A stretch of DNA of 64,000 nt, from contig OZ024746.1 in assembly GCA_964016885.1 (NCBI GenBank), positions 62,620,001 to 62,684,000 of the forward strand. The letters run 5' to 3'. Positions within the stretch are counted from its first letter, which is position 1, and each line of letters begins with the position of its first letter. The notes beneath the pieces are model-generated. The model saw nothing but the letters and a program-made list of their open reading frames with translations. It had not been told where the DNA came from and searched no databases. Of this stretch, positions 319-64,000 are shown piece after piece. The stretch comes from Eledone cirrhosa. Taxonomy: Eukaryota. Position numbers and translations under genes: made by a program.

Positions 319-816
<498 letters not shown>

Positions 817-820
<4 letters not shown>

Positions 821-1014
821 TTAATATAGATGAGATTCTACAGGACTAGAACTGTTTCATTCTTTAGAAATCATCAGAGATTCCTGATGATTTCTAAAGA
901 ATGAAACAGTTCTAGTCCTGTAGAATCTCATCTATATTAAAACTTTTATACTCTGCAATGTATTGAGTACCTTACTTACTGTGGTTACCTCCGATTCAAC
1001 CCGGAATAACGTAC

Positions 1015-1018
<4 letters not shown>
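817..1018 (+). mobile_element. Fold-back hammerhead element between (TA)n tracts (Penelope-like/retrozyme-type)
   Basis: Perfect 61-bp inverted repeat 817-877/884-944 with a 6-nt loop, then a unique 3' tail, with (TA)n on both sides. Confidence 0.75.
877..929 (+). ncRNA. Type I hammerhead ribozyme (family I)
   Basis: Stem I GAGATTC/GAATCTC; core CTGATGA 884-890; stem II T-TTC-taaa-GAA-T; GAAA 903-906; stem III CAG-ttctagtc-CTG; GUA cleavage triplet ending at 922. Confidence 0.85.
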
Positions 1019-1051
<33 letters not shown>

Positions 1052-2848: not shown

Positions 2849-3420
2849 ATCATCATCATCATCATCATTTTACGTCCGCTTTTCCCTGCTTGCAAGGGTT
2901 GGACGGGTCCTATTCAGCACAGCATCTCTCCACTTGTCAGGGTCCTTCGTCATCTCCTCGGTGAGTTTCAGCGATCTGGTCTCACCACCTCCGCTCATGT
3001 TTTACCTGGTCTTCTTCTACTGCGTCTTCCTTCCACTGGGATTTCTTGGCACCTATTTACCCAGCAGTCATCTTCCATGCGCATCACATGTCCATACCAT
3101 CTCAGCCTTCTCTCCTGCACACCACAACTTATCCCTCTTATACCCAGTTTCTTTCTCAACTCATCCATGCTTGGTCGTTCATGCACATTGACATTGCACA
3201 TCCAACGGAGCATACTTGCTTCATTTCTCTCCAGCCGTCGCATATCTTCTGCAGTTGCTACCCATGTCTCACTACCATGCAGCATCAAGCATCCCACACA
3301 GGCATCATATAACCGTCCTTTCGTACGCAGGGAGAAACCCTTCTTTGTCAACAGAGGAAGCAGCTCCCTAAACTTCTTCCAACCCGTCCTTATTCTAGAT
3401 ACTATGGCCTCGGAACATAT
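2849..3420 (-). mobile_element. RTE-clade LINE 3' fragment with (GAT)n tail
   Basis: Translates to GWKKFRELLPLL..LHGSETW..RRLRWYGHVMRM..GRRSRRRPGKT; tail cggacgtaaaa(tga)n. Confidence 0.92.
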
Positions 3421-3461
3421 TGAAATGGATGTTTCTAAATCATGACTACGTATCGCAAGGT

Positions 3462-3690
3462 TTAACCCTTTAGCATTTAAACCGGCCATATCTGGACAGA
3501 ATTCTCTCACCTCTTTCTGTTCAAACCGGCCATAACTGGTCACTCGTACTGATGTTAAGGTATTGTTCTCAAAATAAATAATATTAAAATCTCATAGATT
3601 CGATATTATGTGAGATAACTATGTGAAGTAAAGCTTTTACCATGAAAATATAATAGTAAATATAGAGTAATGTAAATGATAAAGGGTTAA
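3462..3690 (+). mobile_element. piggyBac-type MITE
   Basis: TTAA-CCCTTTAGCATTTA ... TAAATGATAAAGGG-TTAA. Confidence 0.85.
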
Positions 3691-3959
3691 CAACAAAAAT
3701 GATCTGACTCACTTGTTTCAGCCCTTAGACTGCAACTATGTTGGGGAACTATTTTGAAAGGATTATATTGACTATAGTCAATGTCTTTTCAAGTCTGGTA
3801 CTTATTTTATCAGTTTCCTTTTGTCAAACTGCTAAGTTACAGGACATAAACAGTATCCCACCCCCACCCCCCACATATATATTGAGCGCTTGCCGACATA
3901 TCTCAAAGATAGCGTTTCGTTTTGTTTTAGCCACCGCCGAAATATGATCTCGCTGAAGC

Positions 3960-4081
3960 CCTTGCCATTCTGAGTTCAAATTCCGCCAAGGTTAACTTTG
4001 CCTTTCATCCTTACGGGGTCGATAAAATAAAGTACCAGTAATGTACTGCATAATTGCTGTCCTTGTGCCTAACGTAGAAAC

Positions 4082-4088
<7 letters not shown>
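3960..4088 (+). mobile_element. tRNA-derived SINE family A, 5'-truncated
   Basis: B-box GAGTTCAAAT and central GCCTTTCATCCTTACGGGGTCGATAAAATAAAGTACC domain shared with many copies. Confidence 0.85.
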
Positions 4089-4142
<54 letters not shown>

Positions 4143-4150
4143 TATACATA

Positions 4151-4259
4151 CAGGTGTCCCAAAAAAAAAATATATATATATATATACACTTTAATTACAT
4201 GTACAGGCAACATTTATTAGAATGCCATTGAAGTGTGTATGGCATTTTTGGGGACACCT
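4151..4259. mobile_element. Tc1/mariner-type MITE, degenerate
   Basis: CAGGTGTCCCAAAAA ... TTTTTGGGACACC termini; homologous to 13898-13974. Confidence 0.7.
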
Positions 4260-4294
4260 TATATATATATATATACACACATGTGTAGATAAAA

Positions 4295-4475
4295 TAATTG
4301 TTTCTACGTTAGGCACAAGGCCAGCAATTAACCAGTGCATTACTGGAACTTTATTTTATCGACCCCGTAAGGATGAAAGGCAAAGTTAACCTTGCCGGGA
4401 TTTGAACTCAGAATGGCAAGGGTCGTAACTCCATACGTCAAAGCATGGCGTCCGACCCTCTACCGATACTGCCAA
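4295..4475 (-). mobile_element. tRNA-derived SINE family A (MetaSINE-like central domain)
   Basis: Minus strand: A-box TGGCAGTATCGG, B-box GAGTTCAAATCCC, conserved central domain, AATTATT tail. Confidence 0.88.
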
Positions 4476-4532
4476 AGATAAAATAATGTATTAGTTGTTG
4501 AACCTTGGTGATGTATATATATATATATATAC

Positions 4533-5674
4533 GTAGGTAGAAACTCCATTTTATGTCCCAAATGCAAAGTATGGGTGCATAAAAGATGTAGTGGGATCAC
4601 AGGTAAGCTAACTAAGAACATAGATTTTACATGTGGCCGGTGCTCTGGTGCAATAAGTAGCAGCAAGTGCCCACAAAATACTAGCTCTTTCAATTGCGCA
4701 GAGGGTTCTATAGAAATAGTGGACAGCTTCCGTTACCTGGGTGGGGGAGGGTGCTCTGAAAGTACAGTAGCTAGAGTCAGAACGGGATGGAAAAAGTTCA
4801 GAGAGCTTATACCACTATTAGCCGCTAAAGGGTTCTCCCTAAAAATGAAAGGCAGGCTGTATGATGCCTGCATATGAACAGCAATGTTGCATGGCAGTGA
4901 GACCTGGGCATTGTGTGCAGAGGATATACGCAGACTAGAGAGGAACGAAGCTTGCATGCTCCGCTGGATGTGTAATAGTAATATACGTGAACGGCAAAGC
5001 ATAAACGAACTAAGGGGAAAATTAGAAATAGGAGGGATCAGATGTTGTTTACTCGAGAGACGGCTACGTTGGTATGGTCATGTGATGCGCATGAAAGACA
5101 ACAGCTGTAAGCTGTATAAAAAAGTGCAGGGCAATAAAGATAGACAGTAGCCACGGAGTAGGCAGACCCAGAAAAACCTGGGACGACCTGATAAATTCTG
5201 ACCTCACACACTTACACCTCTCCAAGACAATGTCACTGGACCGAGATCTTTGGTGGTACTCAGTAATAGAGAAGACCCGTCTTACCTAAATACAAAGTAA
5301 AACTTACTACAGTCAGTAGGCATCTCTAACAAAATACACCCCCGTCCCACCACCCCCACCCCATCCATACCGCCCCTTTCAATGTAAAGTTATGTTGGTA
5401 CCACAACATCCAGGCCGAAACAAATGAGATCGTGTAGGTGTCACGACAAAAAACACACAGTCCACGCTGTAATGTGGCCATGTAGGTAACACGGTAAAAA
5501 CCTCCCAGTGCCACACTGTAAACGTGGTTGGTGTTAAGAAGGGCATCCAGCTGTAGAAAACCCGCCAGACAGTCCTATGCGAGCAAGACAACCACTCTTG
5601 CCTCAAGTGGGAAAACTCCCGTCCAAACCCATGCAAGCGTGGAACATGGACGTTAAACGATGATGATGATGATG

Positions 5675-5676
<2 letters not shown>
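4533..5676 (+). mobile_element. RTE-clade LINE 3' fragment with long 3' UTR and (GAT)n tail
   Basis: WVHKRCSGI..FTCGRC..FRYLG..GWKKFREL..LHGSETW..RRLRWYGHVMRM with stops; UTR copies at 37300, 45035, 52935 and 59255. Confidence 0.92.
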
Positions 5677-5705
<29 letters not shown>

Positions 5706-6007
5706 CATATATAGTTATTACACAAGGTTTATAATAACTCTGTGCAGCATGCATATGGAACAATAATGCAGCACCAACTAAAAGACATCATTGATGTTGG
5801 TAATGATAGTGATGATGATGATGATGGTGGTGATGATGATGATGATTTTCCTGCAATAAAAATGAGATTGAAAGCATTTTTATAGAGGCAACGGTAACTA
5901 AGCAAGCCATAGTGTTGGAGCTACAAGTAAATCTATGAGGTGATTGGTTGTTAGAGTGAAAGACACACTTGAGAAATATTTAATTTATTAAGACTTAGAT
6001 GAGAGAT

Positions 6008-6158
6008 GGTGGGAAAGGAGGGAGAGAGACGATGGGAAAGGAGGAGGGAGAGACGGTGGGAAAGGAGGAGGGAGAGACGGTGGGAAAGGAGGAGGGAGAG
6101 ACGGTGGGAAAGGAGGAGGGAGAGACGGTGGGAAAGGAGGAGGGAGAGAGAGAGAGAG
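6008..6158. repeat. 24-bp purine-rich tandem repeat (~5 copies)
   Basis: GGGAAAGGAGGAGGGAGAGACGGT repeated. Confidence 0.95.
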
Positions 6159-10118: not shown

Positions 10119-10162
10119 ATATATATATATATATAAAGTTTATCCCAGGTTTACAGTAAGTA

Positions 10163-10225
10163 AGAAATGGCTTCCTGGTGATTTCTCCCGAATGAAACAG
10201 TTCTAGTCCTGTAGAAGCCATTTCT
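10163..10225 (+). ncRNA. Type I hammerhead ribozyme (family I), core variant CTGGTGA
   Basis: 12-bp stem I AGAAATGGCTTC/GAAGCCATTTCT; stem II T-TTC-tccc-GAA-T; GAAA-CAG-ttctagtc-CTG-TA identical to the 877-929 copy. Confidence 0.8.
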
Positions 10226-10240
10226 ATATTATATATATAT

Positions 10241-10905: not shown

Positions 10906-11323
10906 GAAGTTATATTTAATTTGTTGGGATACAACAAGCAAATATTTTTATAACTGATATAAAGCACTCAACAAATTATTGGAGTAAAAATACAATATAT
11001 TAACAAATGGAAACTATATTTATAAAACCATATTTATTTCATACATATTTCAAGGACACCAAGGCAAATTATGGTGCGCTTTCATCAGATAAAATATAAT
11101 ATAGATCAGTTTTATAAATAAATATTGACATACTCTTAAAGAATGCGACCATTTCTGTTGGAAGCTCCCGGATAGTGAAGATATTTATTTATTTATAAAA
11201 CTGATCTATATTATATTTTATCTGATGAAAGCGCACCATAATTTGCCTTGGTGTCCTTGAAATATGTATAATGAAATAAATATGGTTTTATAAATATAGT
11301 TTCCATTTGTTAATATATTGTAT
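10902..11323. mobile_element. Fold-back hammerhead element between (TA)n tracts
   Basis: ~135-bp inverted repeat 10990-11125/11181-11323 with a ~55-nt spacer. Confidence 0.78.
11214..11278 (+). ncRNA. Type I hammerhead ribozyme (family II)
   Basis: TATTTTAT-CTGATGA-AAG..CACCA/TGGTG..CTT-GAAA-TATGTA-TA-ATGAAATA; stem I 8 bp with one G-U pair. Confidence 0.78.
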
Positions 11324-12174: not shown

Positions 12175-12571
12175 TCAGAAGAGATTGTTTTGGTAAAAAC
12201 AGGAGTAAGCAGGAGAAAGCTCTCAACAATCATAGTTTTAAGTTACGATGGAGAATTTTATAAAAATGACAAAATAAAATACTGAGGTTACATATATCGT
12301 TTAATCATTATAATTATTTCTACGGTTCTCCAAGCAATCGAGATGCATTTGCTGTTGTTACGAGAACGGTATCCTCAGATGATATCCGATATGTTTGATA
12401 TGTCGCTGGAAGGAAAAAACACACGTCCTATTTCTTGTGTGCCCGACATATCAAACATATCGGATATCGTTCTCGTAACAACAGCAAATGCATCTCGATT
12501 GCATGGAGAACCGTGGAAATAATTATAATGATTAAACGATATATGTAACCTCAGCATCTTATTTTGTCATT
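12175..12571. mobile_element. Fold-back hammerhead element
   Basis: Inverted repeat 12265-12405/12444-12571; (TA)n on the left, LINE UTR fragment on the right. Confidence 0.78.
12304..12383 (-). ncRNA. Type I hammerhead ribozyme (family II-like)
   Basis: Minus strand: ATCAT-CTGAGGA-TACCGTTCTC...GAGAACCGTA-GAAA-TAATTA-TA-ATGAT; palindromic stem III ATAATTAT. Confidence 0.8.
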
Positions 12572-13858: not shown

Positions 13859-13897
<39 letters not shown>

Positions 13898-13900
<3 letters not shown>

Positions 13901-13974
13901 GGTGTCCCAAAAAATGTATACACATATTTATTAGAATGCTGTTGAAGTGTGTATACATTTTTGGGGGCACCCTG
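13898..13974. mobile_element. Tc1/mariner-type MITE
   Basis: TA-CAGGGTGTCCCAAAAAATGTATACAC ... GTGTATACATTTTTGGGGGCACCCTG-TA; another copy at 44849-44903. Confidence 0.82.
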
Positions 13975-14246
13975 TACGTATATATATGAAATGTAGTTGT
14001 GTCAATGCAAATGACTATAATAACAATCTCTATAAACAATAGTGGGGAGCAAACTGGGCAAAGTACCTCTAGAGTGAGTAAAAGTGGAGAGAGGTGGCTG
14101 TAAGGAATCAAACCCCACATCTCCCAGATAGCAGGTAAGTGTGTTAACTATTAAACTAAAGGGTCCCTGGTCATTAATTGCCATCTTTTAGAAGATTTTA
14201 AGCCTGTAGCCAGAACTCAACTCTTGCTAGAAGACATTAATTAATG

Positions 14247-24161: not shown

Positions 24162-24771
24162 ATATATATTGAGTTAAGAACTCAGGGTAGTCCCTTACAA
24201 TTAAATAGCTCTAAGAAAAAATAAATTGCTGTAGTTAGTATTTTTTCACTCTAGCAAATTTGTACGGCTCGGAAAAGCTTTTTTCTTAGAGCTATTTAAT
24301 TGTAAGGGACTACCCTGAGTTCTTAACTCAATATATATTTGTCAGCTCCATCATGTAGAGCTAATTTTTATTGTCCTGTCAGCCAGGCTGCTATCTTTAG
24401 CGGCAGGGAATTTCGAGACAAGCTGGGTTCCGAATGACACGTGCGATAATTCATATCGTACACAATTCATTCTCTAATATTTTTAGAAGTGAAAGGATCA
24501 CTAATTTCTCAACAACTACTGAGAAGCAGAGAAACGTGAGAACTTCACTTAATACGTCATTGCGAAAGTCTCCAACACTGCCTAGTTGTTACCAGGCATT
24601 TTTGCCTAATATAGGTCTGTTATTTTTCTGAATTTTTCTTAATTTAATATTTAAAGTTAAGGATAACAAACTATATTGCTGTAGTTAGTATTTTTTCATC
24701 CTAGCAAATTTTGGTCCTTACGATTCAAACACATGTATGTTTATATTAGTGTTCATCTCTCTTGTTTATTC

Positions 24772-27070: not shown

Positions 27071-27249
27071 ATAGGAACAAGTAAGACCCCGACGGCTGAG
27101 CTCAAGCCGTTTCGACGGCTAATTCGTCGAAACGGCTTGAGCTCAGCCGTCGGGGTCTTGCTTGTTCCTATTACCCACTCTACTACCCTAAGTATTGAGT
27201 ACTTTGGTGCGTTATGGTCCACCTGGTTCCTTACCACATTTCCTTTGTT
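27071..27249 (+). mobile_element. Fold-back element folded at hammerhead stem II
   Basis: 47-bp arms 27071-27117/27125-27171 with one mismatch; GACG-loop-CGTC-GAAA-CGGC-ttgagctca-GCCG-TC; (TA)n flanks. Confidence 0.75.
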
Positions 27250-27360
27250 ATATATATATATATATGTGTATGTAAAAGGTAAACAGAAATAACAACACAA
27301 TCGGTACAGTATATGGGAGGGCTATATTAGGTTAATGCTTGATATAGCAGGAAGAGGGTT

Positions 27361-52112: not shown

Positions 52113-52248
52113 TTAGATAAAATTGACTCTTATAAAGCAGCTGTCTGTTCTACACCTAGACAGCAATACTTGACTATGTAGTAAATTAGTTCTTTTCTGA
52201 AGAACTGTAAAACAAGACAGCTGCTTTATAAGAGTTAATTATATCTAA
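52113..52248. repeat. Diverged fold-back with possible hammerhead remnant
   Basis: ACTCTTATAAAGCAGCTGTCT/AGACAGCTGCTTTATAAGAGT arms; CTGAAGA at 52198 before the palindrome CAGCTG. Confidence 0.55.

Positions 52249-59567: not shown

Positions 59568-64000
<4,433 letters not shown>

What the first reader, a model, noticed from the sequence alone, without database searches (positions are those of the whole stretch)
817..1018. Perfect 61-bp palindrome whose right half is a complete hammerhead
The arms are identical, so the insertion is probably recent. The 6-nt loop plus one arm base supplies the 5' strand of stem I (GAGATTC), so only the plus-strand copy can fold as a ribozyme, with a predicted cut after 922. 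The long hairpin is an alternative fold that would sequester the ribozyme. Stem II opens with a U-U pair instead of the usual G-C.
Basis: partly seen in the sequence, partly recalled or inferred. Interest (0 to 1): 0.72.

Follow-up and report, generated by a model that had tools for sequence, protein, structure and literature searches.

The report
Capped-end stub of a Penelope retrotransposon
This palindrome is one of many tiny head-to-head insertions left by a hammerhead-carrying Penelope-like jumping gene, likely made by copying the capped front end of the element's RNA into both strands of one DNA cut, so it is probably a dead by-product that records how these poorly understood elements insert, not a ribozyme switch.

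Summary
The 61-bp palindrome and the plus-strand type I hammerhead are real, but neither is unique. Bases 878-1014 are the first 137 nt of the predicted RNA of a young Penelope-like element (6,618 exact tail matches). An intact copy encodes a 713-aa RT plus GIY-YIG protein with Hydra-clade motifs. Head-to-head stubs are the commonest form (57 of 90 copies), and this exact centre occurs at 121 places. Copy ends pile up at base 878, 30 nt behind a TATA box, not at the ribozyme cut. They carry a non-parental G there (1,868 G against 416 A/T), as expected if the mRNA cap was copied. Both arms likely come from one capped, uncleaved sense RNA, primed from both strands of a (TA)n break. This copy has lost its promoter and the hairpin would bury the ribozyme. 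Inverted PLE ends and PLE hammerheads are published; the cap signature was not found in my paper searches. The scan has already reported this reading on other DNA, including this genome. No RNA data were available.

The parts
817..877 (-). Short inverted arm: reverse complement of element positions +7 to +67 (884-944); inferred second cDNA primed at the +67 site
   Evidence: short-arm outer ends fall at +60, +67 or +73 in 52 of 57 copies
877..877 (+). Non-parental G before +1; last base of the short arm and likely also the copied mRNA cap (1-nt overlap)
   Evidence: parent has C; G 1,868 vs A/T 416 genome-wide; origin cannot be told in this single copy
878..1014 (+). Long arm: +1 to +137 of the element's predicted transcript (end of pLTR, 5' UTR ahead of the ATG at +182)
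   Evidence: 2 mismatches to the intact copy L121 over +1..+137; at least 40 places 100% identical over 878-1017
878..929 (+). Type I hammerhead: stem I 878-883/923-928 (plus 877/929 here), core 884-890, U-U 891/902, stem II 892-894/899-901, core 903-906, stem III 906-909/918-921, predicted cut after 922
   Evidence: two compensatory stem I pairs in the sister subfamily; activity untested
945..1014 (+). One-sided tail of about 70 nt between the two inferred reverse-transcription start sites
   Evidence: long arms end at +135 to +140, short arms lack this part
779..816 (.). Left (TA)n target run, within a longer TA/TG microsatellite tract
1015..1049 (.). Right (TA)n target run; no target-site duplication can be read

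Best explanation
The palindrome is a minimal head-to-head insertion of a Penelope-like retrotransposon with Hydra-clade protein motifs into a (TA)n repeat, likely made when both cut target strands primed reverse transcription on one capped, uncleaved sense RNA (near +137 and at +67) and the two copies, running to or near the RNA's 5' end, were joined. Shown: family membership, fixed outer ends, the pile-up of inner ends at base 878, the extra G, and a TATA box 30 nt upstream in the parent. Inferred: that 878 is the transcription start, that the G is the copied cap, and that priming was double. The hammerhead lies at the centre because it fills the first 52 nt of that RNA. This promoterless copy is probably inert, and read-through RNA is predicted to fold as the hairpin.
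For: 6,618 exact tail matches. Intact copy L121 has pLTR-hammerhead, a 713-aa RT+GIY-YIG ORF and a second pLTR. In a position-ordered sample of 90 copies, 45 long arms begin at -6..+15, and 45 of 57 short arms end there, 28 of them at +1..+3. TATA lies at -30 in subfamily A (3 of 3 shown), at -30 and -34 in subfamily B (2 shown of 3 tried) and at -29 to -31 in an unrelated family (3 of 3), although the spacer sequences differ. Base before +1: G 1,868, A/T 416. With pure (TA)n upstream, 14 of 21 starts at +1/+2 carry a G against 0 of 26 starts at +3..+9 (52 loci counted by eye; Fisher p 3e-7). Arms agree at the polymorphic +21 site in 37 of 37 scorable copies, 19 T/T and 18 A/A. The short arm reaches more than 5 nt further 5' than the long arm in 15 of 57, and once the arms do not overlap. 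Among 30 copies with this exact centre the long arm is left in 11, right in 15, unresolved in 4. No pile-up at the ribozyme cut: 10 TA-flanked starts there against 5 at a control TA site. An Anolis PLE protein cuts and extends both strands, starts at two internal sites and uses unprocessed RNA in vitro (PMC11167929). An extra G marks capped full-length L1 insertions (PMC11702581).
Against: No transcript end was observed, so the start site and cap are inferred from DNA alone. Some G's can be templated by the inverted arm or by stem I annealing, including the one in this copy. In the second family the extra-base signal is weaker: of 30 TA-flanked copies reaching +1, 7 show it, 11 are ambiguous, 11 continue as parent and 1 has another base (62 loci counted by eye). 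Later deletions at palindrome centres could produce part of the arm asymmetry. Two overlapping cDNAs from one RNA need strand displacement, which is untested; two RNAs from one dominant source locus fit equally. D. virilis Penelope has a TATA-less internal promoter (PMC2377424), so this layout need not be general.
Confidence: 0.75

Rival explanations
1. Snap-back: one cDNA runs to the cap, folds back and copies itself; the short arm's end is an endonuclease cut or stop in the second strand.
For: Arms always agree at +21 (37 of 37). Near-perfect palindromes with a G on both arms exist (paired hits 1-2 nt apart). The tail has been ascribed to endonuclease resolution (PMC8557442). This copy alone fits, as its loop belongs to the long arm.
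Against: In 15 of 57 copies the short arm holds 5' sequence missing from the long arm (8 the other way), up to about 260 nt more, and once the arms do not overlap. With this exact centre, +1..+6 and the G sit on the short arm in 11 of 30. These cases would all need later one-sided deletions.
Confidence: 0.13
2. Self-priming on an antisense template, the published proposal for PLE head-to-head palindromes.
For: Proposed in PMC3846280 (Discussion passages) to explain palindromic junctions and intron retention.
Against: It does not predict ends at a sense TATA+30 position with an extra G limited to +1/+2, nor fixed sense-side priming sites beside (TA)n at both outer ends.
Confidence: 0.04
3. The hammerhead itself sets the turn point: its structure stalls RT, or stem I drives fold-back.
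For: Some junctions join through stem I complementarity: 3 of the first 100 rows, and several of the subfamily-B loci (a sample biased by my query).
Against: A second family shows the same pile-up 29-31 nt behind a TATA-like box with no CUGANGA core at that place. Stem I annealing explains a minority of junctions. Ends do not gather at the cut site.
Confidence: 0.04
4. A self-spreading hairpin mini-element or a selected ribozyme switch.
For: The exact centre recurs at 121 places.
Against: The 30 examined differ in both outer ends and in which side is long, so the centre was remade many times. There is no promoter, and the hairpin wins by about 71 kcal/mol.
Confidence: 0.03
5. Assembly or long-read fold-back artefact.
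For: The exact locus was not confirmed in reads: no listed contig spans the whole stretch.
Against: Arms are only 61 bp, with different flanks; hundreds of distinct junctions obey the same end rules; contigs from public runs of two studies cross related head-to-head centres (X1 record 1, X5 record 17).
Confidence: 0.01

Closest known systems
Hydra clade of C-terminal-endonuclease Penelope-like elements (PMC8557442; section 11 and passages read, supplements not read)
   Same: Single ORF with RT then GIY-YIG; RWK-like, DKT, CxCx5C, CxxC and CxH motifs; no GxKF/Y; hammerhead in the pLTR; (TA)n targets; inverted 5'-truncated copy with a one-sided tail
   Different: Unit about 6 kb because of a 3-kb microsatellite-rich 3' region (Hydra elements are generally under 3 kb); tail about 70 nt rather than 30-40; RWR for RWK; no tree was built
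Anolis Poseidon PAc in vitro (PMC11167929; main text read, parts 1-2 of 4)
   Same: Both target strands cut and extended, two internal RT starts bounding the tail, AT-rich target, uncleaved RNA used as template
   Different: Other clade; its ORF starts inside the hammerhead, here 182 nt after +1; the text read does not assign the two starts to opposite strands (it saw no strand difference) and reports no cap signature
Metazoan PLE hammerheads (PMC4209133; parts 1-2 of 4 read)
   Same: Type I, in pLTRs, mostly in truncated copies, some paired on opposite strands; low activity alone
   Different: Short 3-bp stem II opening with U-U instead of a long stem with G10.1-C11.1; a full 4-bp stem III with an 8-nt loop. 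U10.1-U11.1 occurs in other natural hammerheads (PMC3088659, passage)
L1 twin priming and cap-derived G (PMC11702581, PMC2831318; passages read)
   Same: Second cDNA primed from the other target strand gives an inverted 5' part; extra G at complete 5' ends
   Different: Here both primings are internal at fixed sites near the RNA's 5' end, and the two cDNAs usually overlap, giving a palindrome
Non-LTR retrozymes (bioRxiv 10.64898/2026.07.22.740005; part 1 of 5 read)
   Same: Short non-coding PLE-derived sequence with a type I hammerhead
   Different: Retrozymes are head-to-tail tandems with two or more ribozymes; this is a single head-to-head stub with one complete ribozyme

Membership tests
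EN+ Penelope-like element | Single ORF with RT followed by a GIY-YIG endonuclease, linked to this pLTR | tested here: met
   L121: 713-aa ORF 182 nt after +1, RT motifs at 253 and 347, IVY/YIG at 585/602; Pfam GIY-YIG only weak, E 0.012, below cut-off, and no Pfam RT hit
EN+ Penelope-like element | pLTRs flanking the ORF, inverted 5'-truncated copy, one-sided tail | tested here: met
   Two direct hammerhead-bearing repeats in L121; 57 of 90 copies with an adjacent short inverted arm
Hydra clade | RWK motif, DKT, no GxKF/Y | tested here: met
   RWR at 38 (R for K), DKT at 116, no GxKF/Y
Hydra clade | CxCx5C linker; CxxC and CxH around the conserved E and N | tested here: met
   CxCx5C at 566, CxxC at 666, CxH at 694, no Cx2-5CxxC
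Hydra clade | (TA)n insertion and canonical hammerhead | tested here: met
Hydra clade | Phylogenetic placement of the RT; length under 3 kb | tested here: inconclusive
   No tree built; the pLTR-to-pLTR distance in L121 is 5,966 nt, longer than usual
Type I hammerhead ribozyme | Core CUGANGA, GAAA, NUH and three stems | tested here: met
   two compensatory stem I pairs and a varying loop II in subfamily B
Type I hammerhead ribozyme | Standard pair at 10.1-11.1 and a stable active fold | tested here: not met
   U-U pair; active fold 3.4 kcal/mol above the minimum for 877-935, stem II probability 0.004
Type I hammerhead ribozyme | Self-cleavage after 922 | not testable with these tools
   needs an in vitro assay
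Non-LTR retrozyme | Head-to-tail tandem with two or more complete hammerheads | tested here: not met
   single head-to-head unit, one complete ribozyme

The most novel reading that the evidence does not exclude
Penelope-like elements insert by double target-primed reverse transcription: both strands of one cut prime on a single capped, uncleaved sense RNA at two different fixed sites, which explains the inverted pLTR and one-sided tail at once and overturns the antisense self-priming proposal. The hammerhead in the first 52 nt would then be a self-decapping off switch that removes RNAs from the pool able to be translated or inserted.
Probability: 0.5. Interest if true: 0.68.

Novelty: new member of a known kind. 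Interest (0 to 1): 0.45.

Why it matters
The single locus is an ordinary, probably inert transposon stub. The family's junctions bear on an open question: how PLEs make head-to-head repeats and tails, and which RNA strand they copy. They give base-level predictions (start at 878, priming near +60/+67/+73 and +136, uncleaved capped template) that can be tested with an intact copy in the in vitro system already published for an Anolis PLE. They also warn that hammerhead-centred palindromes in such genomes are insertion by-products rather than regulatory RNAs.

Tried and rejected
Rfam: no match at gathering score; e-value hits were hairpin-shaped chance matches. RNA evidence: no RNA holder listed, so expression and cleavage are open. 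Laying public contigs did not confirm this exact locus, as no listed piece spans it. My first idea of a 1.1-kb non-autonomous parent was dropped once L121 showed these were truncated copies of a 6-kb coding unit. An extended stem I upstream of +1 was considered and dropped: the upstream 24 nt differ entirely between subfamilies A and B. Cleaved RNA as the main template was rejected (10 vs 5, small numbers). No PLE ORF lies in the window (tblastn). Pfam did not recognise the RT. A look-up of earlier findings by sequence gave nothing. A genome-wide survey of stem II variants was not obtained; variation was read from fetched loci only. No protein homologue search, tree or covariance model was run.

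Full report
Observation. The unit sits between two (TA)n runs. Rfam has no match at gathering score.

It is a piece of a large, young family. A DNA search with 878-1018 scored 40 of 630 candidates, and all 40 were 100% identical over 140-141 nt. A 29-nt tail pattern occurs 6,618 times in the 3.0-Gb genome, with 0 control matches. Copies that extend upstream show the parental context: a CCAAT box, a TATA box whose first base is 30 nt before window position 878, and an initiator-like CCAGATT with its A at 878 (the initiator consensus is recalled). I '+1'. Three of 90 copies run on downstream into coding sequence. One of them, L121, is intact: hammerhead repeat, ATG at +182, a 713-aa ORF, about 3 kb of microsatellite, and a second repeat with the promoter motifs and hammerhead. 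The protein has RT motifs, a GIY-YIG region (Pfam weak, E 0.012) and the motifs that PMC8557442 section 11 gives for the Hydra clade. No tree was built. The window's long arm differs from L121 at 2 of 137 bases.

The palindrome is the family's usual insertion. I fetched the first 92 of the 6,618 places in genome order and analysed 90; two lacked the script's anchor, and two of the 90 look like one duplicated event. Fifty-seven have an adjacent short inverted arm whose outer end is +60 (19), +67 (21), +73 (12) or another nearby site (5), while long arms end at +135 to +140. The roughly 70 nt between is the one-sided tail. Inverted 5'-truncated copies and tails are known PLE features (PMC8557442, passages; PMC3846280, passages), as are hammerheads in pLTRs, some paired on opposite strands (PMC4209133, parts 1-2 of 4).

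Inner ends mark +1, not the cut. Forty-five of 90 long arms start at -6..+15, 29 further upstream and 16 further downstream; 45 of 57 short arms end at -6..+15, 28 at +1..+3. Where the base before +1 is not the parental C it is G at 1,868 places and A or T at 416, in a window whose unique parts run at about 30-45% GC. Some of these G's can be templated by the other arm, so I looked at copies with pure (TA)n upstream. The first 100 rows are 52 loci, counted by eye: 14 of 21 starting at +1/+2 have a G, 0 of 26 starting at +3..+9 do, and 5 reach further upstream (Fisher p 3e-7). An extra G from the cap is described for full-length L1 insertions (PMC11702581 and PMC2831318, passages). At the ribozyme cut there are 10 TA-flanked starts against 5 at a control TA site (27 rows in all). 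A sister subfamily has a different spacer but again a TATA box at -30 or -34, and its stem I begins at +1 with two compensatory pairs. A second family in this window piles up 29-31 nt behind a TATA-like box with no CUGANGA core there, although its extra-base signal is weaker (7 of 30 copies reaching +1, by eye).

Two cDNAs from one source. The arms agree at the A/T polymorphism at +21 in 37 of 37 scorable copies (19 T/T, 18 A/A), so they share a template molecule or source locus. Yet in 15 of 57 the short arm reaches more than 5 nt further 5' than the long arm, 8 go the other way, and in one the arms do not overlap. The window's exact centre occurs at 121 places; in the first 30 the long arm is on the left in 11, on the right in 15 and unresolved in 4, with varied outer ends. 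The centre is therefore remade independently, most simply by a 1-nt overlap between the short arm's G and the cap-derived base. This fits the in vitro behaviour of an Anolis PLE: both strands cut and extended, two internal starts bounding the tail, unprocessed RNA used (PMC11167929, main text). Against it: snap-back followed by one-sided deletion could mimic part of the asymmetry, and no RNA end was seen.

The ribozyme. The core is intact and family-wide, including the U-U pair (120 arms), which occurs in other natural hammerheads (PMC3088659, passage). The active fold is predicted 3.4 kcal/mol above the minimum for 877-935, and about 71 kcal/mol above the hairpin for 817-944. PLE hammerheads are weak alone and may need a dimer or the protein. 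This copy has no promoter, so a read-through RNA would meet the left arm first and fold as the hairpin. I see no sign of a selected switch.

Artefact. Not confirmed at this exact locus, but contigs from public runs of two studies cross related head-to-head centres, and the shared end rules over many loci are not those of a read fold-back.

Novelty. The element type, inverted ends, tail and hammerhead are known. The published explanation for the palindromes is self-priming on an antisense template (PMC3846280, Discussion passage). Listings from seven searches showed no paper reporting a cap-derived G or start-site pile-up for PLEs; subscription journals and the supplements of PMC8557442 were not seen. 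PMC2377424 (passages) describes a TATA-less promoter for D. virilis Penelope; PMC13282606 (passages) counts Penelope families without structure; the retrozyme preprint (part 1 of 5) concerns tandems. My reading was noted, before one search showed eight unreviewed earlier findings of this scan with much the same reading, two in this genome; they are not independent support. Verdict: a new member of a known kind, with a testable family-level clue to PLE insertion; interest 0.45.

Noticed in passing
window 10150-10231: Stub of a sister subfamily with two compensatory changes in stem I, a different loop II, a core change (G for A at A6, mostly on one arm of such copies) and an inverted piece of tail on its left.
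   Followed up: partly
window 27071-27250: Head-to-head stub of a second, larger family (20,944 tail matches). It has a GAAA-stem-GUC stretch like the 3' half of a hammerhead with a palindromic loop, but no CUGANGA in the 60 nt upstream in the parent; whether it is a half or decayed ribozyme is unexplained.
   Followed up: partly
L121 (reverse strand) about 3040-6100: The intact element carries about 3 kb of TA/TG microsatellite between ORF and second pLTR, which could offer it targets inside its own copies.
   Followed up: no
public run X2, joints 942-947 to 878: Head-to-tail jumps from about +67 back to about -8 of another copy: short direct tandems of the hammerhead unit, possibly retrozyme-like.
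   Followed up: no
L121, +1 to +182: The predicted 5' UTR holds upstream ATGs at +10, +20, +24 and +81; ribozyme cleavage after +45 would remove the cap and three of them.
   Followed up: no
window 3959-4422, 10990-11323, 12265-12571, 13885-13987, 24162-24338, 52113-52248: Further, more diverged fold-back repeats (75-87% arm identity), possibly older stubs or MITEs.
   Followed up: no
window 60001-64000: About 4 kb of TA/CA microsatellite with almost no G on the plus strand.
   Followed up: no
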